DNA of 64,000 nt, taken from positions 1 through 64,000 of the IMG/VR virus record IMGVR_UViG_3300025887_000011. One strand, written 5' to 3'. Positions 10,990-45,286 of this stretch are shown one piece after another. The notes under the pieces were generated by a model. That model did no database searches. It saw only the letters and a list, made by a program, of their open reading frames with translations, and was not told the origin of the DNA. This DNA comes from a virus. Both the position numbers and the translations under genes were made by a program. Each line of letters begins with the position of its first letter. Position 1 is the first letter of the stretch.

Positions 10990-11952
10990 ATGGACAAAGG
11001 AAGCATGAAGGTTGCTAGAGAATTGTTGAGCTTAGAGCCAACAGCTATAGTAGAACTATACACAATATACCCAAACTTCAAAAAAAGAAGCGATGTGGTT
11101 TTTAATGTTCATAATGGTTCATTATTTGGAGGAGATATAGTATGGCAAGGTGTCAATTATAGCCCTCTACCAATGGAAATAGAAGGTTTCGAGGTGGAGG
11201 CAAACGGCAGATTAAGCAGACCGAAACTTAGAATATCAAATAAAGATCTTTATTTGTCTGATTTGCTTTCTAAATGGGATGATTTTATTAATGGAAAGGT
11301 TTACAGAAAAAGAACATTTTTAAAATTCATAGACGATGAAAACTTTGATGGAGGGAATCCTTTTGGAGAAGCCGACCCAACAGCAGAATTGACAAATCAA
11401 GTTTTTCTTGTTTCTCAAAAAACACAAGAGAACAGGGCTTATATAGAATTAGAACTTACAACACCCCTTGATTTAGACAACAGCCAAATAAATAGCAGAA
11501 GGATTATGGCTAAATTTTGCTATTGGAAATATAGAGGCAATGGTTGTGGATATGAGGGTCCACCGCTACAAAAAGGAGATGGATTACCTTTTTATAATTT
11601 TACTGGTAGTATCCAAGACCCAAGAGGTATACCAGATTTTAAATACGGAAACCCAGATGATTTGTATGACGAAAATAAAGTTTATGGAATAAATGAACTT
11701 TCATACGTAGAAAATCCAAATGTAATGGTAAGTGATCCTGAAGGATTTAAAGATCCAGAGCCAGCATTAACTTATTATGTAGCTTCTTCTGGTGATTTGA
11801 GTGGATATCATCCAGAAAAACACCCAGAATACTGGAATGCTGACGGATGCAATAAACAGCTGTCTTCTTGCAAATTAAGATTTGGGGATGAAAGAATACC
11901 ATTTGGAGGATTCCCTGGGACTCAAGGTTATCAATTTAGGGCTGGTAGTTAA
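10990..11952 (+). CDS. Lambda gpL-like minor tail protein
   Basis: GRLSRPKLRISN, RKRTFLKFID..NF, CYWKYRG.GCGY, C.K.LSSCKLRF, PFGGFPG; the four Fe-S cysteines of gpL are present. Confidence 0.93.
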   Translation: MDKGSMKVARELLSLEPTAIVELYTIYPNFKKRSDVVFNVHNGSLFGGDIVWQGVNYSPLPMEIEGFEVEANGRLSRPKLRISNKDLYLSDLLSKWDDFINGKVYRKRTFLKFIDDENFDGGNPFGEADPTAELTNQVFLVSQKTQENRAYIELELTTPLDLDNSQINSRRIMAKFCYWKYRGNGCGYEGPPLQKGDGLPFYNFTGSIQDPRGIPDFKYGNPDDLYDENKVYGINELSYVENPNVMVSDPEGFKDPEPALTYYVASSGDLSGYHPEKHPEYWNADGCNKQLSSCKLRFGDERIPFGGFPGTQGYQFRAGS

Positions 11953-11960
11953 TAAAAATA

Positions 11961-12374
11961 ATGAAAAACAACAAAAAAGAAATTTTTGAGTCTCAAGATT
12001 TAGAAAAGTGCCTAGATAAAATAAAGGATTGGTCTACAAAAAGAAAAGCTGTAGAAATCTGCGGTTTTTTAGGTTTTAAAAATGATAAATATATATTGTG
12101 GCATTGTCAAAATATAGCAGAAGACCCTACTAAATACTTCGCAATAGACCCTTTAGATTTTCTAGTTTTTAAGGAAGAAAATAAAATACTTTGCGTTTTT
12201 CATAGTCATATATTTGGCAATGAAAACCCATCTGAATTTGATGTTACTATGTCTGAAAACTGTTGCGTTCCATTTATGATTTATTCATTGAATACAAAAA
12301 AATTCAAAATATTCAAACCAAAGACTAACGAAGCAGACGGTTTTATATTATCTAAAGTAGAGAAAGCTATATGA
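11961..12374 (+). CDS. JAB/MPN metalloprotease (gpK-like, no NlpC/P60 domain)
   Basis: EICGF and intact JAMM motif HSH-x7-S-x2-D (FHSHIFGNENPSEFD); lies between gpL and gpI. Confidence 0.9.
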   Translation: MKNNKKEIFESQDLEKCLDKIKDWSTKRKAVEICGFLGFKNDKYILWHCQNIAEDPTKYFAIDPLDFLVFKEENKILCVFHSHIFGNENPSEFDVTMSENCCVPFMIYSLNTKKFKIFKPKTNEADGFILSKVEKAI

Positions 12375-13789
12375 CTAAAGTTGTTATACATGGAAATCTT
12401 GCTAATGTTTTTGGAAGGGATTTTAAATGCAAAGTGTCTTCTATAAAAGAGGTATTTAATTTTCTTGAAGCAAATAGACCTGGTTTTTATGCAAAACTAC
12501 AAAAACTGTCAAAACAGGGAATGCATTATGCTATCATAGCAGACGGAGAAAAACTCTCTAAGTTAAATCAGATAGAGAATATAAAAAAAATAAAAAGAAT
12601 AGATATTGTTCCTGCTGTAGTTGGAAGCGGACCAATAGCAGTTGGAATAGGAGCAACAATTGCAACCATAGGTTTATCTACAGCTTTAGCAGCTGGCACA
12701 ATAAGTATGACTACATTTATTATAGCTTCTGTAGTAGTTGCTGTTGTCAGCATGGCATTACAAATGATGCTTGCTCCCAAACCCCCAACGCCTCCAGCAA
12801 TAGAAAGCACAACTAGAGCTTTGGAGCAATCGTTCACTTTTGCGAATAAAGATAATGTAGCCGCTCAAGGGTCTCAAATACCATTCGGATATGGAAGACT
12901 TCTTTGTCCAACTTTTGTAATTGAATCTTCAACGAAAAATTACCCGCAAAACATCAGAGCTAACCAAATATTTTCAAACGAAATTAAAGACAACTACCTA
13001 GGTGGCAACGTCGATAGAGAAAAATCAAGTATTGTTTTCCCAACAGAAAAGCCTGACAATGTAGAAGTTTGGGGGCAAGATTCCAGTTTTGATTTTGAAC
13101 ATGAATCATTTTGGGACCCTCTTCAATGTATAGGCGCTCGGAGTTTGCAAATCGAAGGAATAGGAACTCATCTTGTTGAGTTTCACGACGATCCTAATCA
13201 TAGATTAAAGGTTTATCGATGGAACCAATCGTCTACTCTTAATTACACAAACTACTTTCAACAATCGCTTGGGGCGGGATTCTGGTCGGGAGTGTTTTAC
13301 ATGAATGGAGACGGAGGGATTCAACAACGTGTTCTAACTCCCAACGGAATGAACTCTGGATTCTATCAGTATAATACAATTAGTTTCGAAAATAACACCC
13401 CAGAAGTCCAAAGAGACAATCCTCATTGTCAACCTCCTTATGTATCTCCACAATGGGGCAAGAGCGTAAGTTTCGACGTCAAAAACTCCATACGAATAGT
13501 TGTGACAGATTATGATCAAAAACCAGGTTACAATCCTTCAACAGACCCAAGTCCTCCTGGAATCATACGTGCAGAATTTTCTATTAATTTCACAACTACA
13601 AGAACAGTTATATTTGGCAAAACGGGAGAAATTCCACAAAACCTGGACAGAACAAAGATTTTTTATTGGCAGGTTTCAAACTCTGGTAAACCGTCTTCTT
13701 ATCCAAACTATGGGCCTGGCCCATTAACAAGATTTGGAGCAACAAACGGGCAAAGTCCTTCAATAGATAACGGTAAGCTTATAATCTAA
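12371..13789 (+). CDS. gpI-like tail assembly protein A with variable C-terminal extension
   Basis: Ubl-like N-domain (VVIHGNL..FG...IDIVPAVVGSG), hydrophobic helices, N...QG..IP.GYGRL core, then about 280 extra aa. Confidence 0.85.
   Translation: MTKVVIHGNLANVFGRDFKCKVSSIKEVFNFLEANRPGFYAKLQKLSKQGMHYAIIADGEKLSKLNQIENIKKIKRIDIVPAVVGSGPIAVGIGATIATIGLSTALAAGTISMTTFIIASVVVAVVSMALQMMLAPKPPTPPAIESTTRALEQSFTFANKDNVAAQGSQIPFGYGRLLCPTFVIESSTKNYPQNIRANQIFSNEIKDNYLGGNVDREKSSIVFPTEKPDNVEVWGQDSSFDFEHESFWDPLQCIGARSLQIEGIGTHLVEFHDDPNHRLKVYRWNQSSTLNYTNYFQQSLGAGFWSGVFYMNGDGGIQQRVLTPNGMNSGFYQYNTISFENNTPEVQRDNPHCQPPYVSPQWGKSVSFDVKNSIRIVVTDYDQKPGYNPSTDPSPPGIIRAEFSINFTTTRTVIFGKTGEIPQNLDRTKIFYWQVSNSGKPSSYPNYGPGPLTRFGATNGQSPSIDNGKLII
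12935..13010 (+). repeat. 76-bp repeat at the core/extension junction of the gpI paralogues (copies 15678-15753 and about 14290-14356)
   Basis: A vs C: 6 mismatches in 76 nt; encodes KN(Y/F)PQNxRANQIFSNxIKD. Confidence 0.9.
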
Positions 13790-15090
13790 TGACAAAAATA
13801 TTTCTACACGGAATTCTTGGAGTGAAGTTTAAAAAAACTTTTGTTGCTAAAATAGATAAAATTGAAGATGTCTTTGGTTTTTTAAAAGCCAACAATCCAA
13901 AGTTTGAAAAAGAAATTTGCGACATGCATTTAAATGGCGTTAATTACTGCTTGATAGTAGATGGAAAAAAAATAAAAACAAAGGAAGAACTTAGTTTAAA
14001 GAAAAGACCCAAAGAAGTTCACCTGGTCCCTATCTTAGTCGGCCATGGACCATATTCAGCTATAGCTGTTATTGTTGCAAAAGTTATCTTCGCCGTAGTT
14101 GCTTTGTATCTTATTGTAATTTTGCTAACCTCTAAACCACCAAAACCGCCAAGCCTGGAACAATCGACAAGAGCTTTAGAAGAGTCTTACGGCATTAACA
14201 ATAAACCCAATATAACAGCACAAGGAACACAGGTTCCAGTAGGTTATGGAAGATTACTTATTGGAACTCACGTTATAGAATATACTGAAAAAAACTACCC
14301 ACAAAACGTCAGGGCTAACCAAATATTTTCGAATGGAATTAAAGACGGCTACTTAGTTAGTAGCGAACCTAATATTAATACAATACTATGGCCAACAGAA
14401 ACCCCTCCAGAGTACGACGGCTGGGGCGACAATCAGGTTCTAGAATACGAGGGCGAGACATATCACGACCCAGACAGAAATCATGGAGGCACAGGACCAT
14501 TAATATTTCGATGTTGGGAAGGTATTTCTTTTCTTACATTCGGTTACTACTCAATTACAACCCATGTCCCAGAAGGCGGGCTAAACAAGCAAAGATTTGC
14601 TCTTTGGAGTATGCCTATTGATAATTACAACACGGAAAGGACTTCAAGACCTGAAATCTGCACTTCAGGAAGTTCAAGTATTAATGGTGTCCAAAGATGG
14701 TATTTCGGCAGTCTCACACAAATGACCGACAGTAATACTAATGAATTCTACCTAACCAAATACCCGACAAGCAGGCCAGATCCAGAAACAGGAGATCATA
14801 TACTAGGTCGTTTTACTATAACGATCTCTAATGTTATCAAGATTACATACTTTGATAATGGATATGAACTCAGCGGGAACTGCTCAACTGTCTATTACCC
14901 TCCGTGCAACAGGGGTGTATATCTAAATTACCTTACCGTTCCAGAAACAGACAACAACGGTCGATGCCAAATACTCACTACTAAGATTCCTAATATTAAT
15001 TGTGGAATAGATGAAGCTTTTAAATTTAGGGCAGGAGGCTCGCTAATTCAAGGGGCTGAAATTCCTTACGGTGAAGTACCACAAGGTTAA
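13789..15090 (+). CDS. gpI-like tail assembly protein B with variable C-terminal extension
   Basis: IFLHGILG..F...VHLVPILVGHG, one hydrophobic helix, QGTQVPVGYGRL, Cys-containing extension. Confidence 0.85.
   Translation: MTKIFLHGILGVKFKKTFVAKIDKIEDVFGFLKANNPKFEKEICDMHLNGVNYCLIVDGKKIKTKEELSLKKRPKEVHLVPILVGHGPYSAIAVIVAKVIFAVVALYLIVILLTSKPPKPPSLEQSTRALEESYGINNKPNITAQGTQVPVGYGRLLIGTHVIEYTEKNYPQNVRANQIFSNGIKDGYLVSSEPNINTILWPTETPPEYDGWGDNQVLEYEGETYHDPDRNHGGTGPLIFRCWEGISFLTFGYYSITTHVPEGGLNKQRFALWSMPIDNYNTERTSRPEICTSGSSSINGVQRWYFGSLTQMTDSNTNEFYLTKYPTSRPDPETGDHILGRFTITISNVIKITYFDNGYELSGNCSTVYYPPCNRGVYLNYLTVPETDNNGRCQILTTKIPNINCGIDEAFKFRAGGSLIQGAEIPYGEVPQG
14467..14517 (+). repeat. 51-bp repeat shared by gpI-B and gpI-C (second copy 15858-15908)
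   Basis: 33 identical nt (gacccagacagaaatcatggaggcacaggacca); 2 mismatches over 51 nt. Confidence 0.9.
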
Positions 15091-15113
15091 CAGCAAAATT
15101 TAAAGAATACAGT

Positions 15114-16613
15114 ATGACAGAAGTAGTATTACATGGAAACTTAGGTGTTAAGTTCGGTAAAAATTTTAAATGTAAAATTTCTTCTGTAAGAGAGGTGTTT
15201 GATTTTATAGATGCAAATAGACCTGGATTTTCTGAATGTCTTAAAAAACTATCTCAGCAAGGCATGCATTATGCCCTTATATTAGATGGTAAAAAGCTTT
15301 CTGACATGAAAGAAATAAATAATAAAAAGAATATAAAAAAAATAGACATTGTTCCAGCTGTCTTAGGAAAAGGACCAATAGCAGTTGGGATAGGGTCGAC
15401 AATTGCAACCATAGCCTTATCATCTGCGTTGGCAGCGGGAACTATAAGTCTTACTACTTTTATAGTAGCATCTGTTGTTATAGCTGTCGTGAGTATGGCT
15501 TTACAAATGATGCTTGCTCCCAAACCTCCAGAAGCACCGTCAATAGAAGCTACAACTAGAGCTTTACAGCAGTCATTTTACTTTGCAAATAAAGCAAACA
15601 TAGCAGAACAAGGAAATACTATTCCAGTTGGTTATGGCAGGTTATTAGTTAGCAGTTATGTGATTGAAGCTTGTAACAAAAACTTCCCGCAAAACACCAG
15701 AGCTAACCAAATATTTTCAAACGGAATTAAAGACAACTACTTAGGTGGTAACGACAAAATAAATATAGATATTTTATTCCCAGATGAAGAGCCTCCTCCA
15801 GATTATCGTGGATGGGGCAGTTCGGTGAGTTTAAGTGGAAACTCTGATTTATATTTTGACCCAGACAGAAATCATGGAGGCACAGGACCAGTAATATTTC
15901 AATGTTGGCAATCTCCTTTTAAGAGTGGAACGTCAAGTTTCGCCTATAGCGTTTCACATCCATATGGTTTTAGGGGTCTTATCTGGGCTCTGTTCAATAG
16001 AGGATCGTCACCAAGACTTAGTTACGCTAAAATAAACCAGTATGGAGGCAGCCCAACCTCTAATTGGGGAGCAAAAGGAATGGCCCAGGTACCCTCTGAC
16101 GGTGTTCCGTTTGAAGGGGTATCAGAAGCAGTTATGCAGGACATTGCTGGTAATGTTCAATGGGGCAATCCATGGGGAGACAGCCAAATACAACAAGGCC
16201 TTGTCGATGTCGCTCAATATAACGACGGTGGGTATCAAGACTACGGGAAAGAAATAAAAATAGCTAATGGATCTTATTCGTACCAACTTTATCTTGTTAA
16301 TTACTTTAACACTTCTTTCAACCCTATAACGAAAGAAGGTGTTATTGCAGAGTCTGTTATAAACGTGAGTCACAATGTAAACGTTATAATGTTCGACAAT
16401 GGATGGCTTCCTAGGTCCGAACCACCCCCAAATGAATGTTCGACTGTTTACTACCCTCCATGTAACAGAATACAGGTTTACGCAAACCAAGGCAATGGAG
16501 GCAACGAATGCACGGTCGGATCTGGAAATATAAAATCTGGACCAATATTTAGAATGGGCGTCATAAATGCAGGAGGTTTAGGAGCTCAAGGAGGAGAAAA
16601 GTCAACTTATTAA
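15114..16613 (+). CDS. gpI-like tail assembly protein C with variable C-terminal extension
   Basis: N-half closely matches A (IDIVPAVLGKGPIAVGIG...ALQMMLAPKPP); extension framework matches B. Confidence 0.85.
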   Translation: MTEVVLHGNLGVKFGKNFKCKISSVREVFDFIDANRPGFSECLKKLSQQGMHYALILDGKKLSDMKEINNKKNIKKIDIVPAVLGKGPIAVGIGSTIATIALSSALAAGTISLTTFIVASVVIAVVSMALQMMLAPKPPEAPSIEATTRALQQSFYFANKANIAEQGNTIPVGYGRLLVSSYVIEACNKNFPQNTRANQIFSNGIKDNYLGGNDKINIDILFPDEEPPPDYRGWGSSVSLSGNSDLYFDPDRNHGGTGPVIFQCWQSPFKSGTSSFAYSVSHPYGFRGLIWALFNRGSSPRLSYAKINQYGGSPTSNWGAKGMAQVPSDGVPFEGVSEAVMQDIAGNVQWGNPWGDSQIQQGLVDVAQYNDGGYQDYGKEIKIANGSYSYQLYLVNYFNTSFNPITKEGVIAESVINVSHNVNVIMFDNGWLPRSEPPPNECSTVYYPPCNRIQVYANQGNGGNECTVGSGNIKSGPIFRMGVINAGGLGAQGGEKSTY

Positions 16614-16628
16614 AAATAAATTTAAAAA

Positions 16629-19600
16629 ATGAAACATTATGAATTAAAAACAGAAGTAGCTGGAGCAGGAGGAAGAAAAGGCAAAAAGCCAAAACCAGCA
16701 ACACTAAAGCCGCCTAAACTTGGCGACTATAAAGTGGCTTCATCTTATACTTATGCAGAAATTTTAGATTTGGTCTCTGATGGCCCTATAGAAGGTCTTG
16801 TTAATAAAAATGGTTATACACTTCCATATAACGCTTTGCTTCAAGGCGTTTATCTTAATAATGTTCCAGTAGAAGAGACAAACGAAAATTTCTTAACAGA
16901 AGCAGGTATAAAAACACCACTTTTGGACCAGTCAAAATTCTCTAGCGGGATTAAAGAAATGTTTGACGATATTCAATTTTCGACAAGGGATGAGATAGAA
17001 GATAAAGGTTTACTTTACCCAGATACAGATAATTTTGCTGACGCTAAAGAAGTATATTACTCTTTCAATACTGGGCTTTATAAGGGCAATCAATTTATAA
17101 ATAAAGTAGAAGATTTAAGTTCTTTAATAAATTTCCCAGCAGACATAAGAAATCCAGAAAAATACCCAGTTGTTACATATGGAGATACTTACGTTTCTGG
17201 AAAATCCGATAACACTCCAATTAGAGGCTCTTTTTTCTCAGACAATAAGTATGAAGCTAATTTTTCAATGGGAATAAAACATATAAATGATGTTTTCCAA
17301 GAAGGAACGAACGCAAAAAAGGGTTTGGATGAATTCTTAGAATCAGTTTATTCAGACAATTTATATATCGGGGAGTACGCAAAAGGAAAACTAAGGTCTT
17401 TCGGTTATACAGAAGAAGATATAGACAATGGAGTAGGAGAACAAAACATAAAAAACCTTTTTGCCAATATATTTTCAAAGCAAATACCAGATTGGTATTT
17501 AAATAGCAATGACTTTATAACCCCTTATGTTTGTATTACTGTAGATGGGGTAATGGAAGGTTATGAATTTTATAATCATGTAAACTATTTTCTAGAAAAA
17601 GATGAAAGTGGTTCTGTTACATCAAAATTAAATTATTATGCTGATTTTGATCTTGATTCAGAATCTAGGTCTGAAGGTCTAAACTTGTCTAGTAATACTC
17701 TATCAATGTTTATTCCGAATTTAGCCGAAAACGGAACTTGGGATGGAAAAGTTCAAGGTTTTTATTTCTTTCTATTAGATGCTGAGTCTGTTGTTTACGA
17801 AAATATAGAAAAAGTTTCTGGTCCTTCTGATTTTGACGCTTTGACTATGGGGATAGATCAGTCTGAACTTTCGTTTTTGAGGAGTTTAAAAGGATTTATA
17901 CTTTCAGACAACAACCCATTGAACAATGAAAAAGCTCCTAAAAAAATAATACCATACTACGAACTATACTCTTTTGAGAGAAAGCTTGTAGATACTGGAG
18001 GATGTGTATTCACAACCGAACTTAACAGGGTATCTTTAGATAAAGGATATTCAGACCAAGATTCCATAGAGTCTATATCTGAAGATAAATATCAAAGCGA
18101 TGTTATAAGAAAAGGCGTTCAAGTTAAGTGGAGTTTTAAATATCAAACTTATCGAGAACGCTTTATGGAAATACCTATAGATATTTGGTGTAAAAAAGTT
18201 TCTGGCATCACTACAGATATACATTATAAAGCAAGGGTATTTTTAGATGGAGAATTAGTCTTAACAGAAGAAAAGACAAATTGGAACACTAATGGAACCG
18301 ATAACCCAGAGCTTTCTGTTAGGATTCCTCCTTCTCAGTTTTTGCAAACAATAACTCTCGATATTGTTGCCTACTCGAGTTTAGAAACCCCAACTTCTTG
18401 CCCTTTTTCATTACCTGTAATACCTGAAGTTAGAGCTAGAGTATTTAGACCTGATATATTTCGTGAGCTTGAAGATGATATTGAAGCTCAAGATGTTGGT
18501 GCGGTAAAATATAACTGGTCAAATGTTTTGGCTGAGTTTAGGCCAGGTTCAAGAAACCAAGCGCCATTAACATATTTTAAAGATGTTAATGTCGATTATA
18601 ATTATCAATACACGCTTCTTGGTCCTTTTAACCCAGATAAAAATGACGGGACGACTGTGCAAAGGATAGTGCAAGGAGACGGAAAACTTAAAAAGCCCGA
18701 CAAGTATCCAATATTAAATATGGCATCAACATTCGTACCTACAATGGACGAAGAATACCTAAGTGCGATACAAGAAGGAAGCTCTGACAAAAGATGGACT
18801 GGAGCTTATAAAACAATTAGTTCTTCTGGCGGTGGTTTAAAAATACGAATAAAGAATCCTGATGACTTCGCTGGTTGGGATGTTAACGGACAAGATTATT
18901 CTGAAGAAGCACAACCTTTAACGCACATTATAGAAAACCCAAATGTAACATCTGTATGGTTTACTTTAAATATAGATGCTTTAAAAGATACTGTACATAG
19001 ATCGATAGGAGACCCAGCTGAACCAGATGTAGATGCTGGATCATCTTTACCAGCAAACGTAAATATAAGAGTAGAGACAGGATTAATAGACTACAACGGA
19101 AAAACAACTACGACTTATAGTAAACTATTTCAGATAACAGCGCTAGTAGAATCTCCTTCTTTGTTGGATATTGGAAATTCAGACAACCAAGGATTACAAT
19201 CTTATTTCGACTATATAAATGTGTATAATGATATTAATGAAGTCGATCAAAATAATAACCCTATCGATAGAGGAGGGATGTTTTCCCCTTTCTTGTTGGA
19301 CGATCCTAAATCTCAAACTGGAGATCCAGATTTAAATACCAAAAACCAAGAACATACATCTACAAAAAGATTTATAAGAGTCACTAAATTGACAACAGAA
19401 ACCAGCTCTACCTTAATTTTCAAAGAGGTAGGTGTTGTAAAATTTTCAGAAATCATACCAGGGCAATGTCAATATCCGTATTCAGCTTACTGTGGCATCA
19501 AAATCGATTCTCGAGTTTTTGCAGACATACCATCAAGATCATACGAAGCTAAATTAAAAAAGGTAAAAATACCATCTAATTACTTCCCTACTTTTAGAAA

Positions 19601-21323
19601 TGGAAAAGACAAAAGGTATTATGACAAAGCTAATTCTTACTCTGTGGCAAGTGGTGAGGATAGACATATATACAAAGGAGACTGGGACGGCACATTTAAA
19701 TTTGCATGGACAGACAATCCTGCTTGGATACTGTACGATGTAATACTTAATGATCGTTATGGACTAGGTGGATTTGTAGAAGCGTCATCTGTAAACAAAT
19801 GGGATTTATATAAAATAGGAAGATTTTGTGATGCTGTAGACGAACAAGGTTATTTTGTTGGTTTAGATGACGGAAGAGGAGGTTTAGAACCTAGATTTTC
19901 TTGTAATATAATGTTCTCTGAAGAAACTAAAGTATTTGATGCTATAAACACAATAGCTACTATATTTAGAGGTGTTGTCTATTATAATAATTCTACTATA
20001 GAATTCTCTGATGATAGACCAAAAGAACCTATAGCTCTTTTTACTAACTCTAATGTAAAAGAAGGAATTTTCACTTACTCTAATTACCAAAGAGACGAGC
20101 AAATAAATACAATAGAAGTTGTTTATATTGATAGGTACGATGGATATAAAACTAAACTAGAATTAGTAGAAAACCAAGCAGATATAGCAGAAAGAGGGAT
20201 ATTTAAAAAATCAATTAATGCATTCGGAATTACTTCAAAAGCTATGGCCAGAAGGGCTGGAGATCATTTTCTTTACCAAACCACAAAAGAAAACCAATCA
20301 GTGGCTTTTAACTGCGGTTTAGAAACTCTATTATGCAAACCTGGTGATTTAATAGTTGTTGATGATGAACTGAAATCATTTAAATCAAATTTTGGAAAAG
20401 TGTTAGATGTCAATAACAATGAAAAATCAGTAAGAATATCGCAAAGCTTTCTACCAAATGATTACGATGCGCAAATTACTCTTTATAAACCATCTAAATT
20501 AAACGATGTTGATTCAATAGATGATAGTATATCTTTTTATAGATCTAGATTAGATACCTTTACTATACTAGGAAATAACACTGATTTATTGGCAGGTAGC
20601 GGATGGAACAACATGATTGGAGAGTGGCAATTTAGCGGCTACACAAGTGGATACCAAGAAGTAAAAGACGCTGTAGGAAATTATATATCCCCTCTTCAAG
20701 AAGAGTATGCATTATATAAAAATATAGAACCTACTTCTTCTGGTTATTCTCCTACTCTCTGGTTTAATACAGAAGCTCAAGGTTGGGTGTTTTCTACTGG
20801 AAATTATTCAAATTCAGGAGCTTTAGAAAATAATAATTTATTTATATTAGAACCTAATTTATTCAGCTTTTTGGACCTTCAGTTGTTCGATCCAAACGAC
20901 TTGACAAAAACCCGTATTAAAAAATACGAGCCGATTAATCAAGATAAAAGAGGAGCTACTATAGGAAACTTTACTGGTGACTTTATTTATAATGACCCAA
21001 GCGTCGATCTTGTTTATTACAACGGTAATCAATCTACAGAATCCACAATAGGAAGCAGCGTCCAAATATTTTCCGTACCTATAACTGGATGGGGATCATC
21101 TGAGTATGGGGACGATGTCTTTGTAGATAAAGACGATATAAACTCATCTTTACTTGAATTCGTTCCTATTGGAACAACTTATAGATTTACTATTAAAGAC
21201 GAAAAAGATAGTATATATAAAGTAACCTCTATAAAAGAAGAAGGAAGAAGTGAGTTTTCAATTATAGCGACAAAATTTGATACTGGCAAGTACGACCTTA
21301 TAGATAAGGGGGGTGCTTTCTAA
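16629..21323 (+). CDS. Lambda gpJ-like central tail-tip protein
   Basis: DLVSDGPIEGL, YPYSAY.G, WDGTFK.AWTDNPAWILYD, EPRFSCN, FTNSNV.EG.F.Y, PGDLI.V.D. Confidence 0.93.
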   Translation: MKHYELKTEVAGAGGRKGKKPKPATLKPPKLGDYKVASSYTYAEILDLVSDGPIEGLVNKNGYTLPYNALLQGVYLNNVPVEETNENFLTEAGIKTPLLDQSKFSSGIKEMFDDIQFSTRDEIEDKGLLYPDTDNFADAKEVYYSFNTGLYKGNQFINKVEDLSSLINFPADIRNPEKYPVVTYGDTYVSGKSDNTPIRGSFFSDNKYEANFSMGIKHINDVFQEGTNAKKGLDEFLESVYSDNLYIGEYAKGKLRSFGYTEEDIDNGVGEQNIKNLFANIFSKQIPDWYLNSNDFITPYVCITVDGVMEGYEFYNHVNYFLEKDESGSVTSKLNYYADFDLDSESRSEGLNLSSNTLSMFIPNLAENGTWDGKVQGFYFFLLDAESVVYENIEKVSGPSDFDALTMGIDQSELSFLRSLKGFILSDNNPLNNEKAPKKIIPYYELYSFERKLVDTGGCVFTTELNRVSLDKGYSDQDSIESISEDKYQSDVIRKGVQVKWSFKYQTYRERFMEIPIDIWCKKVSGITTDIHYKARVFLDGELVLTEEKTNWNTNGTDNPELSVRIPPSQFLQTITLDIVAYSSLETPTSCPFSLPVIPEVRARVFRPDIFRELEDDIEAQDVGAVKYNWSNVLAEFRPGSRNQAPLTYFKDVNVDYNYQYTLLGPFNPDKNDGTTVQRIVQGDGKLKKPDKYPILNMASTFVPTMDEEYLSAIQEGSSDKRWTGAYKTISSSGGGLKIRIKNPDDFAGWDVNGQDYSEEAQPLTHIIENPNVTSVWFTLNIDALKDTVHRSIGDPAEPDVDAGSSLPANVNIRVETGLIDYNGKTTTTYSKLFQITALVESPSLLDIGNSDNQGLQSYFDYINVYNDINEVDQNNNPIDRGGMFSPFLLDDPKSQTGDPDLNTKNQEHTSTKRFIRVTKLTTETSSTLIFKEVGVVKFSEIIPGQCQYPYSAYCGIKIDSRVFADIPSRSYEAKLKKVKIPSNYFPTFRNGKDKRYYDKANSYSVASGEDRHIYKGDWDGTFKFAWTDNPAWILYDVILNDRYGLGGFVEASSVNKWDLYKIGRFCDAVDEQGYFVGLDDGRGGLEPRFSCNIMFSEETKVFDAINTIATIFRGVVYYNNSTIEFSDDRPKEPIALFTNSNVKEGIFTYSNYQRDEQINTIEVVYIDRYDGYKTKLELVENQADIAERGIFKKSINAFGITSKAMARRAGDHFLYQTTKENQSVAFNCGLETLLCKPGDLIVVDDELKSFKSNFGKVLDVNNNEKSVRISQSFLPNDYDAQITLYKPSKLNDVDSIDDSISFYRSRLDTFTILGNNTDLLAGSGWNNMIGEWQFSGYTSGYQEVKDAVGNYISPLQEEYALYKNIEPTSSGYSPTLWFNTEAQGWVFSTGNYSNSGALENNNLFILEPNLFSFLDLQLFDPNDLTKTRIKKYEPINQDKRGATIGNFTGDFIYNDPSVDLVYYNGNQSTESTIGSSVQIFSVPITGWGSSEYGDDVFVDKDDINSSLLEFVPIGTTYRFTIKDEKDSIYKVTSIKEEGRSEFSIIATKFDTGKYDLIDKGGAF

Positions 21324-34411: not shown

Positions 34412-34439
34412 ATATTAGCATAAATCATAAGTTTGTCAA
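34412..34439 (-). promoter_or_regulatory. Sigma70-type promoter of the polymerase genes
   Basis: TTGACA-16 nt-TAATAT with TGn extension, 6 nt before the ATG at 34405. Confidence 0.65.
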
Positions 34440-35461
34440 GATGAATGTGCAGGGCAACCAGGATAATACTTCATTTCATATGAACCTCCTTCTGGAACCA
34501 TTTCTTCTGAAAACTCATCGTCAAAACAAGATTTTGCAAAGTTGCCATTTGAATCTCTAATGTCATAATAAAAGAAATCAAACTTCATTCCACAATACCA
34601 CATTGGAGTGCCATCTTTTTTAAGTTGTCCCTTTTCTTTAGCGAAACCACAAAGAAGTTTGCAACTAAAAGAACCATCGCTAGGGAAACCTTTGTAAGCC
34701 GCCATGTTCTTTGTAGCAGATTCTTCATTAAAATTATCTAGATACTCTTGAATCTCAGTAAGATGATGTTCGAAACCGTGGAGATCATGTTCATCAAGAG
34801 GCTTCATTCTTACTATGCCGCTTTTTTTGACATCTGGTATTAAGTCAAACTTAAGAAACAAAAATTCACTTTGTTTTGTTTCGTACTCTGGAAATAGATG
34901 CTTAACAGCAAGACTATACATTAGATCCTGCATGTTGTCTTCTGCATCCTTACCTTTGAATGTTTCCTTGCTTGTTTTAAAGTCTCTAATTAAAGCGAAT
35001 TTTTTATCTTTATAAAGAAAAAGTTTATCAATAAACCCTCTGATTTTATATTTTACTGTACCGTCATTAACTACGATGTGGAAGTCTTTTTCTGAATGCT
35101 CTTCAGTAGGATCTACTTCTGTATCTCCAAAAAAATCATACATCAAACCATTAAGGGTCATCTCTTTCATCATCTGAACGTTATCTTTATCATCAACGCC
35201 CTCCCTTATCGCATGTTTCATTATTAGCCTTTTTATAGACGGAACACTGAATACATCAAGAGTACGGATAATTTCGTCAAAGTAATGTCTTCTTCTTTTT
35301 TCTCCCAAAACTTCAAAAATTAAGTGACAAATAGAACCTCTTCTAGCTCCATCATTACTCCTGTCTGGAAGCTTTAGTTTATACTTAGACCAGTAAAGCC
35401 AAGAACAACTTTCTGCTGTTTTGATTCTGCTTGCCGACAATGTTGTTATTGGTTCACTCAT
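34436..35461 (-). CDS. PD-(D/E)xK Cas4/RecB-like exonuclease
   Basis: LSASRI...C, RGSICH, RGFIDK, IRDFKT, Q...Y, C-terminal cysteines. Confidence 0.85.
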   Translation of the reverse strand: MSEPITTLSASRIKTAESCSWLYWSKYKLKLPDRSNDGARRGSICHLIFEVLGEKRRRHYFDEIIRTLDVFSVPSIKRLIMKHAIREGVDDKDNVQMMKEMTLNGLMYDFFGDTEVDPTEEHSEKDFHIVVNDGTVKYKIRGFIDKLFLYKDKKFALIRDFKTSKETFKGKDAEDNMQDLMYSLAVKHLFPEYETKQSEFLFLKFDLIPDVKKSGIVRMKPLDEHDLHGFEHHLTEIQEYLDNFNEESATKNMAAYKGFPSDGSFSCKLLCGFAKEKGQLKKDGTPMWYCGMKFDFFYYDIRDSNGNFAKSCFDDEFSEEMVPEGGSYEMKYYPGCPAHSS

Positions 35462-38243: not shown

Positions 38244-38647
38244 AAATTAATATCCTGGTCTTTGAAAAGTGATGCGTTTATTTCGTCCGTAGTATAAACT
38301 TCTAGAAGCTTTATATCATTAATCTCGCAAAAGTCAAACTTCTTTTGATCCCTTTTTAGTTGATCTAAATATTTAAGCCTGTTTTTGTGAAAGTGTTTAA
38401 CATACCTAATATGTTGATCACCTTGGACTTCAACTGCGATGCCTTTATTGGCGTTGTAAAAATCTAAGGATAGTCTTGTTCCGACTATTCTGAATTCTTC
38501 AAAAACTACATCATGCTTCCAGTAAGGCTTTAAAAAATCTTTAACTTTATTTTGGAACTTGCTTCTGCTAAGTGCATTCCAATCAATTAGGTATTTTTTT
38601 GCTCCTTTTAAATTTCTTGGTTTTCCATATGGATCCAAGAATTTCAT
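38240..38647 (-). CDS. Vsr/DUF559-like endonuclease
   Basis: LDFY...IAVEVQGDQH...RDQKK..FC..NDI.L. Confidence 0.8.
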   Translation of the reverse strand: MKFLDPYGKPRNLKGAKKYLIDWNALSRSKFQNKVKDFLKPYWKHDVVFEEFRIVGTRLSLDFYNANKGIAVEVQGDQHIRYVKHFHKNRLKYLDQLKRDQKKFDFCEINDIKLLEVYTTDEINASLFKDQDINL

Positions 38648-39771
38648 GTCAGTTCTGCTATCGCATTTTTAAAATATTTAATCAAGAAGTCAGAAAGTTT
38701 GTCGTCGTCTTCAATCAATTTAAACAGGTTGTTCTCTCCTTGTATTTTTTCTGGAAACTCAAGTTCGTTTTCAATGAGCAGTTCTTTAAAGTCTTCTGTA
38801 GCGGATATCCAAGCTCCCCCTTTTTTAAGGAACTCCCAAGCATACATCAAATCAATAATCTCTTTTTCAATCCATATAGAGTTTCCTCCTTTACGGCCAT
38901 ACCTCAAGGGGTAGGTTATTCTAGAGTTTGTTTTTTCGTTGGGTGACTTTTTAACTGTGACAACAGCAAAGTGGCCAATAATTGGATTTTTTTTCATGTC
39001 CATTTTTTTAATAGAAGAGTTTTGAAGTATAACATCCTTATTAAATCTTGGTTCAAATTCGATAATCCAATTAGCAAAGTGAAGTAGTGCGTTGCCTCCT
39101 GTAGCGCTGGTTTGTCTAATGGGGGCCTTTGTATAAGGATCTAATTTGATATCTGCTCTGACTTGAGAAATAAATATTGCCATGTGACCTCGCTTCGCCA
39201 AAGCAATAGACATTTTCTTCATAAAAGTACCTGCAATTACGGCCCCACCAGCAATCTTAGAAGAGTCCTCAAACCCCTTATCCATATCATTCTTCGGTAT
39301 CAGTCCATCTACAGAGTCAAGAACAAAACAATACTTTGTGTCGTTTTCATTGTCCGCAACAAGTTGCCTCATTAAATCTACAGCTGTTTCATAAATATTA
39401 GATTCAAATACAAAACAAGTTCCATCCACCCAGTCTTTTGCGCTGAAAACAAATTCAAGACCAGATCTTTCTCTCATCTCTTTAGACAGTCTTCCTTCTG
39501 CTTTTATGTAAACACCTTTCGATCTAGGTATTGTAGATAGAAAGTTTTTTATAACCTCTAAAGCCTCTGATGTCTTGCCTCCTTCATTCATACCACAAAA
39601 TCTATGGAGTCCAGGCCCAAAGCCGCCTCCAAGCTGAAGGTCGAATTGTAGAGATCCGCTAGATACTTTATAATCTATCTCTTCTTCGAAGTTATAGTGA
39701 TCATCCTTGTTTGCCTTAAGGAATCTGTCTAATAAATTGATTGAGTCTTGTTGTTGTTCTTCTTTATTCAT
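38644..39771 (-). CDS. recA: RecA/UvsX-like recombinase
   Basis: SSGSLQFDLQLGGG, G.NEGGKTS, VLDSV, FISQVR, TGGNALLHFA. Confidence 0.9.
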   Translation of the reverse strand: MNKEEQQQDSINLLDRFLKANKDDHYNFEEEIDYKVSSGSLQFDLQLGGGFGPGLHRFCGMNEGGKTSEALEVIKNFLSTIPRSKGVYIKAEGRLSKEMRERSGLEFVFSAKDWVDGTCFVFESNIYETAVDLMRQLVADNENDTKYCFVLDSVDGLIPKNDMDKGFEDSSKIAGGAVIAGTFMKKMSIALAKRGHMAIFISQVRADIKLDPYTKAPIRQTSATGGNALLHFANWIIEFEPRFNKDVILQNSSIKKMDMKKNPIIGHFAVVTVKKSPNEKTNSRITYPLRYGRKGGNSIWIEKEIIDLMYAWEFLKKGGAWISATEDFKELLIENELEFPEKIQGENNLFKLIEDDDKLSDFLIKYFKNAIAELT

Positions 39772-40225: not shown

Positions 40226-41257
40226 TTATCCGATATTTATATCGGTGTCAACCATCTTTTTAACAAGCCCTTGGAAATTTGTTTTTCTGATCCAGCCAAG
40301 CTCTTTTTCTGCTCTGGAAGGGTCCCCTAATAAAAGCTCTACTTCGGCAGGTCTGTAATATCTAGGATTAATCTCAACAAGTAATTTATCACCGTGGATA
40401 TATTTCTCGTCTAGACCTTCACCGACCCATTTGCATTTTTCAGCACCGTAACCAGCATAAGAAAAAGCAGTTTCCACAAAATCTCTGATTGTATGGGTCT
40501 CCCCAGAAGCTAGAACATATTCCTTTGGCTCTTTTTGATTAAGCATCTTCCAAATACCATCTACAAAATCCTCCGCATCAGACCAGTCTCTTTTTGCTTC
40601 AAGGTTTCCAAGCTCAATAGGTTTGAAACTATCTCCGATGCTGTTTTTCAAAAATATCTCAGCCACACCTTTAGTGACTTTTCGGGTAAGAAACTCTTCA
40701 CCTCTCCTTGTTCCTTCGTGATTAAATAACCAACCTTGTATTGCATAAAGATTGTAAGAGTCCCTCCAAACTTTAACCAAGTGTCTTGCGGAGGCTTTGG
40801 ATGCTCCATACGGGCTTCTGGGGCGCAATGGATGCGTCTCGTCCTGAGGAGCGGTAACTACGTCGCCGAATTCTTCAGACGAGCCAGCATTGTAGTATCG
40901 GCAATCTGGGCAGTATTTGCGGATAGCCTCAAGCTGGTACAATACAGACATGCAATTTGTATTCATGTGGTTCTCTGGCATATCCCAACTAACACCAACA
41001 AATGAATTTGCTGCAAAATTAATAAAGTAGTCTGGCTTCTCTTCTTCGATAACACGATTGACATTTGATTGGTCAGTTATGTCAAGGTCGATGAGTCTAA
41101 ATCTTGGGTTGTCAGACAAGTGTTTTATGTTTTCGTGATTTTTAACACTAAGTCGGCGCACTCCTGCGATGATATCGATGTCTGTATTCTCCAACAAGTA
41201 GTCAGCCATAAAGCTTCCGTCTTGTCCTGTTACACCTGTGATAATTACTTTTTTCAT
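40226..41257 (-). CDS. gmd: GDP-mannose 4,6-dehydratase
   Basis: ITGVTGQDGS, SSEEFG, PRSPYGASK, LFNHE, LGNL.AKRDW, RPAEVELLLGD. Confidence 0.93.
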   Translation of the reverse strand: MKKVIITGVTGQDGSFMADYLLENTDIDIIAGVRRLSVKNHENIKHLSDNPRFRLIDLDITDQSNVNRVIEEEKPDYFINFAANSFVGVSWDMPENHMNTNCMSVLYQLEAIRKYCPDCRYYNAGSSEEFGDVVTAPQDETHPLRPRSPYGASKASARHLVKVWRDSYNLYAIQGWLFNHEGTRRGEEFLTRKVTKGVAEIFLKNSIGDSFKPIELGNLEAKRDWSDAEDFVDGIWKMLNQKEPKEYVLASGETHTIRDFVETAFSYAGYGAEKCKWVGEGLDEKYIHGDKLLVEINPRYYRPAEVELLLGDPSRAEKELGWIRKTNFQGLVKKMVDTDINIG

Positions 41258-41671
41258 TTAAACGTAGTCTGTGCAAACGCCAAAGCATTTGTATTTTTTT
41301 TCCTTCCAGTTAACATCATTATCTACAATAACACATCTTTTTTCAACTCTTTTACCAGGAAAAGTCCAAATAATTTTTTTTGATGTTAGTGTATAGTCGT
41401 CGTTTTCGTGCCAAAAGTAATTACAGCTTGGAGGACAGTTAACCAAAGCCTCTAAATTCTTGCAATGAATCCATAGACCTTTATTGTATAAAAAAGAAAA
41501 ATCTATCTTGTATTGAGGGTAATCATGCCCAAGAAAAAAACAGGAATCTTTTTGCCATAAATCTATCTCGCAATCAAAACCAAGCTGTAAACATTTTAAG
41601 ATTTGATCTGGATTGTTCTCTGTATCTTTGTTTACTCCTTTAAGGTTCCCTCTGTGCGATATTATCTTCAT
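41258..41671 (-). CDS. Minimal glycerophosphodiester-phosphodiesterase-like protein
   Basis: ISHRGN...EN...GFDCEID...LGHD, WIHCKN, GVCTD. Confidence 0.75.
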   Translation of the reverse strand: MKIISHRGNLKGVNKDTENNPDQILKCLQLGFDCEIDLWQKDSCFFLGHDYPQYKIDFSFLYNKGLWIHCKNLEALVNCPPSCNYFWHENDDYTLTSKKIIWTFPGKRVEKRCVIVDNDVNWKEKKYKCFGVCTDYV

Positions 41672-41698
41672 GATTTGATATTACGTAGAATAGGCATT

Positions 41699-43063
41699 CT
41701 AAATTTTATTTTTTAAAAACAAATCGAGATCTTCTGGAGTTCCTAAACCCCACATTTTTTCTATATTAAATGTTTTTATTTTTTTGCCGTCAGCTATAGC
41801 TTCATTAAAAACTGGACAAACATAAAACTCATTATTAAATCTTTTGTTTTCACTAATCATTTGTTCTGCATATTTAACATAATCAGAACCCTTCTTCCAA
41901 TAATAAATCCCAACTGTGGCAATATCTGATATCGGGTTTTTTTCTGCAACCTCTGTAACGAAACCGTTTTCATCAATTTTAGCAAAAGACCACTTAGGAT
42001 GCGTCGACCTAAAGGTCAGTATCCCAGCATCAAGATCTTGTTCTTGCATTTTATACATAAACTCACTTGTGTCCCACTCAGCAAATTGGTCGGAGTTCGC
42101 TATGATTAAAGGGTTGTCATTATTTATAATATCTTTAGCCAACAGCGTAGTACAAGCGGCACCTTCTGTGATTCCTTCGACTTCTACTATGTTCGGTTTT
42201 TCTGCAATCATGCCAAGCATTGAATCAAGGTTATATTTTTCTCTATGACTTTTTTGAACTATAAAAGAATGCTTGCTTTCAAAGTTTAAGTTGTCCACGA
42301 CAACTTGTATCATTGCTTTGCCATCTACCTCAATCAAAGGTTTTGGAAATGTATAGCCAGCTTTTTCAAAACGACTACCTGCACCAGCCATGGGAATAAG
42401 AACATTTAGCTTCCTATCTTGCCACTTTGTATTTGTATTTGTGTTTTTCGTTTCCAAAAGGTTTCTTTCTATTTTTTCTAAAGTCAAGTCTTTCGCATTT
42501 TTAACCCTAACCACTTTAGCTCCAGATCTTTGAGCCGCTAGTAGTCCGTGTGGAGAATCTTCCACTATCAATGTTTCTTCTGGGTTTTTTTCAAGTATTG
42601 ACATAGCATCCCAATACATTTGAGGATGAGGTTTTGAATTTTTTACATCTTCGTTGGAGATTATAAGATCGAAGTACTCTATTACGCCTACTTTAGAAAG
42701 CATTAGTATAACAGACCTTCTTATAGAGTTGGAGCAACAAGCAATCTTAAAACCTTTAGCTCTTAAACCCTTAAACATTGAGATTAAATTTTGATTAAAT
42801 TCTAATTCTTGTATCTTTTTAGATGTTATTCTTTGTTTCCCTTGCCAAATTTGTTTGTGCAGTTTTTCTGGCAATCCTTTTTTCTCTGATAGAATATTTA
42901 ACTTAGATGTTGTTTTGAGACCATCATAAATACTCAAATGTTCTTGTTCAGATATTACAAATTCTGATCCGACTTCAGCCAAAGCCTCGTTCAAGGCATC
43001 GTAATGAATTTCTTTAGCGTCAACTAAAACACCGTCTAAATCAAATATTATTAATTTTATCAT
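41699..43063 (-). CDS. HAD phosphatase fused to a sugar-phosphate nucleotidyltransferase
   Basis: FDLDGVL, KPHP, VEDS; IPMAGAGSRF...PKPLI, EK, GLGTPEDL. Confidence 0.88.
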   Translation of the reverse strand: MIKLIIFDLDGVLVDAKEIHYDALNEALAEVGSEFVISEQEHLSIYDGLKTTSKLNILSEKKGLPEKLHKQIWQGKQRITSKKIQELEFNQNLISMFKGLRAKGFKIACCSNSIRRSVILMLSKVGVIEYFDLIISNEDVKNSKPHPQMYWDAMSILEKNPEETLIVEDSPHGLLAAQRSGAKVVRVKNAKDLTLEKIERNLLETKNTNTNTKWQDRKLNVLIPMAGAGSRFEKAGYTFPKPLIEVDGKAMIQVVVDNLNFESKHSFIVQKSHREKYNLDSMLGMIAEKPNIVEVEGITEGAACTTLLAKDIINNDNPLIIANSDQFAEWDTSEFMYKMQEQDLDAGILTFRSTHPKWSFAKIDENGFVTEVAEKNPISDIATVGIYYWKKGSDYVKYAEQMISENKRFNNEFYVCPVFNEAIADGKKIKTFNIEKMWGLGTPEDLDLFLKNKI

Positions 43064-44702: not shown

Positions 44703-45286
44703 AGTTTATTGTAAATTTCTATATCTTTTTCGTAAAGAAACTTATAATCTTCGAATTTAACTTCTGAGATTTTATTGCCAACAGATTCGTTTTGATGATA
44801 AGCTTCAACCTTTACGTCTAAGTATTCAGATAAGTTATCAAAAAGTTGATCGTCACACAAGAAGTCTTTATCGGTTATTTTTTTTTCTCCATCAAAAATA
44901 AATTCGTTTTGAGGACATCCATGTATAAAGTTACAACTTTGAATGTAATACTTGTTTCTTATTGAATTAAGGTAAGAATAATAAAAAAACAAATGTTCTG
45001 GGTTTCCTAAGTGCTTGGTAGCATAGGAAAGAGAAGAATAAAACCTTTCTTCTGGGTTTCTAATCGTAGAAAAAACTTTATAACCGTTATCTATAGCTGA
45101 CTGTATAACATGAAATTTAGAGTAGTGCATTGGCAGCATATGAGTTTTATCTATAGTCCCATCTTCGGTTGCCATATGAGTATCTATAAGATCTGGATCT
45201 ATCTTCTTAAAAGATTTGTATATAGAAGAACCCCAATTCTTAGGGATATGTATATATAGGAATTTTAACTTGTGACTAACCAGCAT
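44690..45286 (-). CDS. Carbohydrate sulfotransferase (Sulfotransfer_2-like)
   Basis: FLYIHIPKNWGSSI and FSTIRNPEERFYS. Confidence 0.8.
   Translation of the reverse strand: MLVSHKLKFLYIHIPKNWGSSIYKSFKKIDPDLIDTHMATEDGTIDKTHMLPMHYSKFHVIQSAIDNGYKVFSTIRNPEERFYSSLSYATKHLGNPEHLFFYYSYLNSIRNKYYIQSCNFIHGCPQNEFIFDGEKKITDKDFLCDDQLFDNLSEYLDVKVEAYHQNESVGNKISEVKFEDYKFLYEKDIEIYNKLCSK

What the first reader, a model, noticed from the sequence alone, without database searches (positions are those of the whole stretch)
12935..16470. gpI-C is a mosaic of A and B, with high-identity DNA blocks flanking a hypervariable insert
Seen: C matches A through the Ubl and hydrophobic region but matches B in the extension (DPDRNHGGTGPxIFxCW, FDNG, CSTVYYPPCNR). 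Near-identical DNA lies at module boundaries: 12935-13010 vs 15678-15753 (6/76 mismatches) and 14467-14517 vs 15858-15908 (2/51). Between CW and FDNG the sequences are unrelated and differ in length. Inference: these blocks are crossover points for swapping a variable insert within a Cys-pinned framework, possibly using the phage's RecA or Rad52-like protein.
Basis: partly seen in the sequence, partly recalled or inferred. Interest (0 to 1): 0.72.

Follow-up and report, generated by a model that had tools for sequence, protein, structure and literature searches.

The report
Shuffled extensions on triplicated tail-tip protein
An uncultured marine phage carries three tandem copies of the lambda-type tail-tip protein gpI, each with a long extra domain, and a short DNA block where that domain begins is kept nearly identical by recombination and is where related phages have swapped the domains between copies.

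Summary
Three tandem gpI paralogues (A 12371-13789, B 13789-15090, C 15114-16613) lie between a JAB gpK and gpJ. Each is a complete canonical gpI plus a 230-300 aa orphan extension. Synonymous identity in both blocks is far above background: A-C block 1 has 19/22 identical codons (10.8 expected) and B-C block 2 has 14/14 (6.4 expected). The equally conserved CSTVYYPPCNR motif sits at background (6/15).

Block 1 covers the last ~20 residues of a canonical gpI. It behaves as a recombination junction:
- A distant two-copy relative has its own ~175-nt near-identical block at the same boundary.
- Database proteins show seven of nine N-core/extension combinations, all breaking inside block 1.
- Other relatives pair 47%-identical cores with 78-95%-identical extensions.

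Block 2 is a short B/C conversion patch, and one natural B variant carries three clustered changes to the C state beside it. I found no evidence for insert swapping within a Cys framework. "C is a mosaic of A and B" cannot be shown as stated, because the shared B/C motifs are ancestral. The function of the extensions is unknown; I infer an externally displayed host-contact module. This is a new variant of modular adhesin shuffling.

The parts
10990..11952 (+). gpL-like minor tail protein (tail-tip hub part)
   Evidence: Pfam Phage_tail_L, E 1.5e-46
11961..12374 (+). gpK-position protein with a JAB/MPN domain only; its stop overlaps the start of A
   Evidence: Pfam Prok-JAB, E 9.5e-8; junction sequence
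12371..13789 (+). gpI paralogue A (472 aa): canonical gpI core with a long hydrophobic region, plus an A-type extension that lacks the Cys motifs
   Evidence: phrog_32, E 5e-29, on residues 1-185; alignments
13789..15090 (+). gpI paralogue B (433 aa): core with a short hydrophobic region (an old paralogue lineage), plus a B-type extension
   Evidence: phrog_32, E 5.5e-19; N-core tree groups B with L009_2, P0176 and P0177 at 93/90
15114..16613 (+). gpI paralogue C (499 aa): core sister to A, plus a C-type extension nearest to B-type
   Evidence: phrog_32, E 1.8e-29; trees
12913..13010 (+). Block 1, copy in A: the core/extension junction (KNYPQNIRANQIFSNEIKDNYLGGN)
   Evidence: Repeat family D2; codon tests; lies just after the part that aligns to lambda gpI 14-204
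14268..14365 (+). Block 1, copy in B
   Evidence: Repeat family D2; B-C 15/19 identical codons, p 0.007
15656..15753 (+). Block 1, copy in C
   Evidence: Repeat family D2, 87% to the A copy; A-C 19/22 identical codons; 26-nt exact run
14460..14520 (+). Block 2, copy in B (DPDRNHGGTGPLIFRCW): a short conversion patch shared with C
   Evidence: Repeat family D3, 90%; 14/14 identical codons; 33-nt exact run; variant P0029 converted to the C state at its 3' edge
15851..15911 (+). Block 2, copy in C
   Evidence: As for the B copy
16629..21323 (+). gpJ-like tip protein (1564 aa). The hub region is near the C-terminus and the protein ends at the end of the hub, with no FNIII or central-fibre part.
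   Evidence: Pfam Phage-tail_3 at residues 1098-1249. Residues 1015-1302 align to lambda J 256-543. The last ~35 residues align only weakly (below significance) to positions 576-610 of a 1172-aa J-like chain.
38644..39771 (-). RecA-like recombinase of the phage; a candidate catalyst of the exchanges, link untested
   Evidence: Pfam RecA, E 2.2e-12

Best explanation
A, B and C are two-module proteins.

Module 1 (residues 1-~213) is a complete lambda-type gpI. It has a ubiquitin-like domain, hydrophobic helices, a plug, and the C-terminal strands that dock into gpJ. Module 2 is a 230-300 aa beta-rich orphan extension appended exactly where canonical gpI proteins end.

The cores are old, position-specific paralogues. 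A short-hydrophobic type (B) and a long-hydrophobic type split before these phages diverged. A and C arose by a later duplication of the long type.

The extensions have a separate history. They move between paralogues by homologous, non-allelic recombination whose crossovers fall in the ~75-nt junction (block 1). The same process, seen as short-patch gene conversion, keeps the junction DNA nearly identical among the copies within one genome. Block 2 is a further short conversion patch between B and C.

Unequal exchange at the junction also accounts for copy numbers of one, two and three in relatives.

Inferred, not shown:
- In lambda, the last strands of gpI thread outward through gaps in the gpJ hub. 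This phage's gpJ ends at the hub. I therefore infer that the extensions sit on the outside of the tail tip as fast-evolving host-contact modules.
- The junction peptide is probably held the same in all copies because every copy must dock into the single gpJ.
For: Shown:
1. Each protein contains a complete canonical gpI. phrog_32 matches. A family profile matches lambda gpI chain 8iyk_I residues 14-204 at E 9e-13, ending four residues before block 1. Of 2220 homologues, nearly all of those listed are ~190-230 aa.
2. Synonymous identity is elevated in blocks 1 and 2 but not in another conserved motif.
3. There is an independent replicate. In L009 (two paralogues on one contig) the same boundary carries a ~175-nt block that is nearly identical, with 18/19 identical codons and exact runs of 47 and 33 nt. 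The rest of the two genes is ~45-55% identical. That block's sequence is unrelated to the window's block.
4. The junction is more alike between paralogues of a genome (24-25/25 residues) than between orthologues of different genomes (18/25), although orthologous cores are 91% identical and paralogous cores 43-49%.
5. Core and extension histories are decoupled. P0011/P0176 have cores 47% and extensions 95.5% identical. P0010/P0177 have 48% and 78%, and both list a 126,836-nt contig. P0033/P0004 have 44% and 75%, and both list a 5,369-nt contig. The core tree has a short-hydrophobic clade at 93/90 and A+C at 99/98. The extension tree has three type clades at 99-100 that cut across core types.
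6. Seven of nine core/extension combinations are found, with all breakpoints in block 1.
7. Micro-conversions occur in natural variants.
8. Copy number is 1 in L008, 2 in L009 and 3 in the window.

For the location of the extension: lambda gpI is a virion trimer whose C-terminal strands pass through gaps in the gpJ hub domains (PMC11101478, PMC10721106). The window's gpJ ends at the hub. Across strains the extensions diverge 12-36% while cores diverge 1-10%.
Against: - Same-contig claims rest on equal contig lengths only.
- P0002 is 100% identical to known parents on both sides, so it could be an assembly chimera.
- Exact homology in the window is short (26 and 33 nt).
- Selection for domain-boundary chimeras, rather than a mechanistic hotspot, could place all surviving breakpoints at the junction.
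- The function and location of the extensions are inference only. The AlphaFold model was poor (mean pLDDT 44). Pfam, the ESM Atlas and PDB sequence searches gave nothing for the extensions.
Confidence: 0.7

Rival explanations
1. Ordinary duplication and divergence, with only trivial patchy conversion. C keeps ancestral features in both halves. A diverged fast in its extension and B in its core. The chimeric database proteins are metagenome assembly errors made at the shared repeat.
For: Outgroups carry the long hydrophobic region (as in A and C) and the DPD..H, W-N and YP..CN motifs (as in B and C). The AU test does not reject an A+C extension clade (p 0.22). Each chimera is seen on one short contig. 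P0002 equals its parents exactly.
Against: P0005 and P0006 are two different sequences (extensions 83% identical) with the same A-core + B-type architecture, and that B-type allele is never seen behind a B core. The A-type extensions of P0004, P0033 and P0008 are three distinct alleles (74-88%), each tied to a different core. P0011/P0176 and P0010/P0177 show cores at 47-48% against extensions at 78-95%. The L009 block lies on one verified contig. A de Bruijn repeat normally breaks contigs rather than joining them.
Confidence: 0.12
2. Blocks 1/2 and the FDNG..CSTVYYPPCNR motif are paired crossover sites that swap a hypervariable insert as a cassette within a Cys-pinned scaffold.
For: Block 2 has 14/14 identical codons and a 33-nt exact run. 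P0029 shows conversion at its edge. The region after CW is the most divergent and varies in length.
Against: The 3' motif has background codon identity (6/15), so there is no downstream homology for a second crossover. No variant shows a foreign insert between native flanks; the identity profiles of P0003, P0005, P0006 and P0015 decline smoothly. The stretch just before FDNG is homologous in B and C. A-type extensions lack the Cys motifs altogether.
Confidence: 0.1
3. The blocks are conserved for a reason unrelated to recombination. Candidates are strong protein constraint combined with codon bias, or a nucleotide-level element such as an RNA structure, a frameshift site or an internal promoter.
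For: Block 1 is conserved in all three genes, and its peptide probably docks into gpJ.
Against: Codon identity exceeds the codon-usage expectation and involves minority codons (AAC, GAC, TAC). RNA folding z-scores range from -0.95 to +1.64. Promoter and terminator counts are no higher than in shuffles. The L009 block has a different sequence at the same place. No slippery heptamer is shared by the three copies (read).
Confidence: 0.05

Closest known systems
Bacteriophage lambda gpI (tail tip assembly / 'insertion' protein; PDB 8IYK, 8XCG)
   Same: Ubiquitin-like N-terminus, hydrophobic helices, the PKPP..GYG..V core, and a gene position between K and J. In lambda it is a trimeric virion plug whose C-terminal strands thread through the gpJ hub (PMC11101478, PMC10721106).
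   Different: Lambda has one 223-aa copy. Here there are three tandem paralogues, each with a 230-300 aa orphan C-terminal extension. The neighbouring gpK has only a JAB domain, and gpJ lacks the FNIII and fibre part.
T-even gp38/gp37 tail-fibre adhesins, where recombination within conserved motifs swaps specificity segments (Tetart 1996/1998, cited in PMC3157838)
   Same: Conserved short motifs border hyperplastic segments. [quoted passage not shown] There is an attachment module and a variable module.
   Different: No sequence relationship. The carrier here is a tail-tip plug protein, not a fibre. Exchange is between tandem paralogues in one genome as well as between phages. Only one junction (core/extension) is shown to be used for crossovers.
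Concerted evolution / gene conversion islands in tandem paralogue arrays
   Same: Short tracts of near identity, including synonymous sites, lie inside otherwise saturated paralogues, and copy number varies.
   Different: The tract sits precisely at a domain boundary and recurs there in an independent lineage with a different sequence.
gpI-gpJ fusion proteins and other long gpI forms (P0141, P0169; T5 pb3 logic)
   Same: They show that the gpI C-terminus can continue into further tip domains (PMC10721106 equates gpL + gpI + J N-terminus with T5 pb3).
   Different: Those extensions are gpJ itself (FNIII-A_GpJ, Phage-tail_3). Here the extension has no detectable family, and gpJ is a separate gene.

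Membership tests
Lambda-type gpI (tail tip assembly protein I; phrog_32 / PF06805) | Sequence match over the ubiquitin-like domain, the hydrophobic helices and the C-terminal GYG..V core | tested here: met
   phrog_32 at E 5e-29, 5.5e-19 and 1.8e-29 over residues 1-~190. The family profile matches 8iyk_I residues 14-204 at E 9e-13. Pfam's own model PF06805 gave no hit at E 0.01.
Lambda-type gpI (tail tip assembly protein I; phrog_32 / PF06805) | Gene lies between gpK (JAB) and gpJ, downstream of gpL | tested here: met
   The same order is found in L008 and L009.
Lambda-type gpI (tail tip assembly protein I; phrog_32 / PF06805) | Single-copy protein of ~190-230 aa that ends ~20 residues after the GYG..V motif | tested here: not met
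   There are three copies of 433-499 aa. The typical listed homologue is ~190-230 aa.
Lambda-type gpI (tail tip assembly protein I; phrog_32 / PF06805) | Trimeric plug inside the virion tail tip | not testable with these tools
   Needs virions or a structure. Known for lambda only.
Modular adhesins shuffled at conserved motifs (T-even gp38 type) | Natural recombinants whose junctions lie in the conserved motif | tested here: met
   P0002, P0004, P0005, P0006 and P0033 all break inside the 25-codon block 1. This is protein-level evidence only.
Modular adhesins shuffled at conserved motifs (T-even gp38 type) | Several conserved motifs that each delimit an exchangeable hypervariable segment | tested here: not met
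   Only block 1 yields crossovers. Block 2 shows short conversion only. The 3' motif has no DNA identity above background.
Modular adhesins shuffled at conserved motifs (T-even gp38 type) | Homology to gp38/gp37 | tested here: not met
   No Pfam family matches any extension at E up to 5. There were no usable Atlas or PDB matches.
Modular adhesins shuffled at conserved motifs (T-even gp38 type) | The variable module binds the host receptor | not testable with these tools
   Inference from topology and evolutionary rate only.
Site-specific invertible or template-driven variation (shufflon/Gin-type inversion, DGR) | Inverted repeats flanking the cassettes, or a template repeat matching the variable region | tested here: not met
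   All copies are on one strand. Only weak 20-27 nt inverted repeats were found, and no extra copy of the inserts, in 11000-18000. A reverse transcriptase or invertase gene was not searched for.

The most novel reading that the evidence does not exclude
The three extended gpI paralogues fill the three gpI positions of one tail tip as a heterotrimer, or as mixed trimers. Their extensions emerge through the hub of a fibre-less gpJ and serve as the phage's tip receptor-binding modules. Recombination at the junction re-deals these modules among the three positions, giving combinatorial host range from a protein previously known only as an internal plug.
Probability: 0.25. Interest if true: 0.8.

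Novelty: new variant of a known kind. Interest (0 to 1): 0.6.

Why it matters
gpI has only recently been recognised as a virion component: the plug of the lambda tail tip. Until now it has been treated as a small, single-copy, conserved protein.

This family shows gpI as a carrier of large, fast-evolving, exchangeable modules, present in one to three copies at a position with three-fold symmetry. If the extensions are external, that would add a new class of host-range determinant in siphoviruses. It would also add a new place to look for receptor-binding domains in uncultured marine phages.

The locus is also an unusually clean natural example of concerted evolution confined to a domain boundary, repeated independently in two lineages. 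The claim can be tested directly from existing metagenome reads.

Tried and rejected
- Scans of IMG/VR gave only a near-identical strain fragment (L006/L007). JGI metagenomes gave one single-copy relative (L008). GTDB genomes gave one two-copy relative (L009).
- tblastn of C against 50,697 phage records found no match. Searches with the gpI core and with gpJ found only distant lambda-like phages.
- AlphaFold2 of C with a 19-sequence alignment gave mean pLDDT 44, so no fold search was run.
- The ESM Atlas gave TM scores of 0.34 or less.
- Pfam found nothing on six extensions (one search was a frame slip, corrected).
- RNA folding of the blocks and promoter/terminator scans gave no signal.
- I looked for a frameshift-site reading of block 1. 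An A_AAA_AAC heptamer occurs in B only, so I rejected it.
- A tree-based proof that C is a recombinant of A and B failed (AU p 0.22). The converse constraint on the cores is rejected (p 0.0145).


Full report
**What is there.** The window is the first 64 kb of a 91.8-kb IMG/VR virus record. Bases 10990-21323 form a lambda-type tail-tip operon:
- gpL (Pfam Phage_tail_L, E 1.5e-46).
- A 137-aa JAB-only protein in the gpK position.
- Three tandem paralogues: A 12371-13789, B 13789-15090, C 15114-16613.
- A 1564-aa gpJ.

The genes are tightly packed. The K/A and A/B stop and start codons overlap. Residues 1-~190 of A, B and C match PHROG phrog_32 'tail assembly protein' (E 5e-29, 5.5e-19 and 1.8e-29). 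A profile of the family matches lambda gpI (8iyk_I) residues 14-204 (E 9e-13). Canonical gpI ends about 19 residues after that point. Block 1 (KN[YF]PQNxRANQIFSNxIKDxYL) starts four residues after it. Each protein is therefore a whole gpI plus a 230-300 aa extension. The extensions have no Pfam, Atlas or PDB relative, and AlphaFold2 could not model C (mean pLDDT 44).

**Checking the observation.** Block 1 is present in all three genes and block 2 in B and C. I asked whether the DNA identity merely reflects conserved residues. It does not.
- Among identical residues, A and C use the same codon at 19/22 positions in block 1. The phage's codon usage predicts 10.8 (p 3e-4).
- B and C use the same codon at 14/14 positions in block 2, against 6.4 expected (p 2e-5).
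- B and C are at background in the equally conserved FDNG..CSTVYYPPCNR motif (6/15).
- The cores of B are synonymously saturated against A and C.
- Many of the shared codons are minority ones (AAC, GAC, TAC).
- The blocks show no RNA structure (z from -0.95 to +1.64) and no excess of promoter or terminator matches.

A B-C BLASTP alignment (30% identity, E 5e-11) begins about 36 residues before FDNG and continues through the Cys motif.

**An independent replicate.** Two more distant, syntenic relatives were found. L008 is a North Sea metagenome contig with one extended gpI. L009 is a contig binned with a 'Promethearchaeota' MAG, most likely a mis-binned phage contig, and it has two. The two L009 genes are ~45-55% identical in DNA, except for a ~175-nt stretch at the same core/extension boundary. 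That stretch is nearly identical, with 18/19 identical codons and exact runs of 47 and 33 nt. Its sequence (KNLPVNRRFNLFQPDxGVPGQISQSEEPIVD) is unrelated to the window's block. The phenomenon therefore belongs to the boundary, not to a particular motif.

**Population evidence.** Three protein searches and one exhaustive profile search recovered about 25 extended gpI proteins. The exact A, B and C sequences occur on 13 contigs, so this phage is common.

The cores fall into three types that are 90-99% conserved across strains. The extensions fall into three type clades with 99-100% support. The two are combined freely:

| Core | Extension types found (examples) |
|---|---|
| A-core | A (window), A' (P0008), B' (P0005, P0006), C (P0002) |
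| B-core | B (window, P0015), A'' (P0033) |
| C-core | C (window, P0003), A' (P0004) |

Sources. Every breakpoint lies within the 25 codons of block 1, at no fewer than three distinguishable positions (and the sequences).

The observed pairs are what reciprocal unequal exchanges would give. An A x C exchange gives P0002 and P0004. An A x B exchange gives P0005/P0006 and P0033. This fits the copy numbers of one, two and three seen in relatives.

In a more distant clade the decoupling is extreme. P0011 and P0176 have cores 47% identical and extensions 95.5% identical. P0010 and P0177 have 48% and 78%, and both list a 126,836-nt contig.

The junction is 24-25/25 identical between paralogues but 18/25 between orthologues whose cores are 91% identical. 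That is concerted evolution within genomes.

Short conversions are also visible. The B variant P0029 differs from B at four residues. Three of them (L238V, R241Q, E244Q) lie together at the 3' edge of block 2, and all change to the C state. The A variant P0007 has E204G and G212S in block 1, towards the B state.

**History of the modules.** With canonical gpI proteins as outgroup, the core tree has a short-hydrophobic clade (B-type, P0176, P0177, L009_2; 93/90). A-type and C-type cores are sisters (99/98). The long/short core paralogy therefore predates these phages, and A/C is a later duplication. In the extension tree B- and C-types group with L009_2 (87/96), and A-type sits on a very long branch. 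An AU test rejects B+C for the cores (p 0.0145) but does not reject A+C for the extensions (p 0.22). The features C shares with A (long hydrophobic region) and with B (DPD..H, F/W-[DN]N, YP..CN) are also present in outgroups. So 'C is a mosaic of A and B' cannot be established as history. C may simply be the least derived copy, with block 2 as a genuine short B/C conversion patch. The family as a whole is nonetheless mosaic at the junction.

**Mechanism and function.** Shown: non-allelic homologous exchange is concentrated at the core/extension junction. It appears both as short conversion tracts and as crossovers that reassort modules.

Inferred, on the catalyst: the phage's own RecA-like protein (38644-39771) or host functions carry out the exchange. 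The 26-47 nt exact runs are near the minimum for such enzymes.

Inferred, on function:
- In lambda, gpI is a trimeric plug in the tip lumen. Its last strands pass through gaps between gpJ hub domains and pair with HDII, HDII-ins and FNIII-A (PMC11101478, PMC10721106).
- An extension added to that end would therefore lie outside the cone.
- Here gpJ ends at the end of the hub and has no FNIII or fibre part.
- The extensions evolve several times faster than the cores.
- Together these points suggest an exposed host-contact role.
- The junction peptide, as the last docking strand, must fit the single gpJ in every copy. That would favour its homogenisation.

Some gpI homologues elsewhere are fused to gpJ itself or carry other long orphan tails, so the gpI C-terminus tolerates continuation.

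**Limits.** Same-contig statements rest on equal contig lengths. P0002 could be an assembly chimera. The fold, location and function of the extensions are unproven.

[quoted passage not shown] The carrier, the tandem-paralogue setting and the single domain-boundary junction differ. The cores are members of the gpI family. The single-copy, ~200-aa architecture is not met. I rate this a new variant of a known kind, of moderate to good interest. The scan had already flagged this same stretch (e1-6012587), and it flagged other mosaic gene families in this genome that I did not test.

Noticed in passing
window 16629-21323: gpJ (1564 aa) has its conserved hub region near the C-terminus. Residues ~1015-1302 align to lambda J 256-543. 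The protein stops at the end of the hub, so it has ~900 extra N-terminal residues and no FNIII or central-fibre part.
   Followed up: partly
L006:1420-1450 (window ~15624): A near-identical strain (IMGVR_UViG_3300007540_005245) differs from the window in B-C only by a 1-nt deletion that splits C into 177- and 317-aa ORFs. This could be a sequencing error or a natural knockout of one paralogue. The next differences are SNPs clustered at 18286-18293 in gpJ.
   Followed up: partly
window 11961-12374: The gpK-position protein is only a 137-aa JAB/MPN domain, with no NlpC/P60 half. It is translationally coupled to the first ubiquitin-like gpI. The same 137-aa size occurs in L009.
   Followed up: no
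L009 (JABXKB010000040.1): A contig with a complete lambda-like tail-tip module (gpL, JAB, two gpI, gpJ) is binned in a 'Promethearchaeota/Lokiarchaeota' MAG and is annotated as such in NCBI. Most likely it is a mis-binned bacterial phage contig.
   Followed up: no
window 12345-16637 gene starts: None of the gpI or gpJ starts has a recognisable Shine-Dalgarno sequence (for example TAAAGAATACAGTATG). This fits a host group that does not use SD, such as Bacteroidota. The host is otherwise unknown.
   Followed up: no
window 34436-35461 and 38644-39771 (- strand): The phage encodes a PD-(D/E)XK nuclease and a RecA-like protein. It also encodes GDP-mannose dehydratase, glycosyltransferases and an RNR small subunit in 40226-50600.
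   Followed up: partly
proteins P0069, P0083, P0087, P0091, P0179: Other gpI homologues of 730-990 aa carry long C-terminal parts with no Pfam match. P0141 and P0169 are gpI-gpJ fusions. Extended gpI proteins are therefore a wider, undescribed phenomenon.
   Followed up: partly
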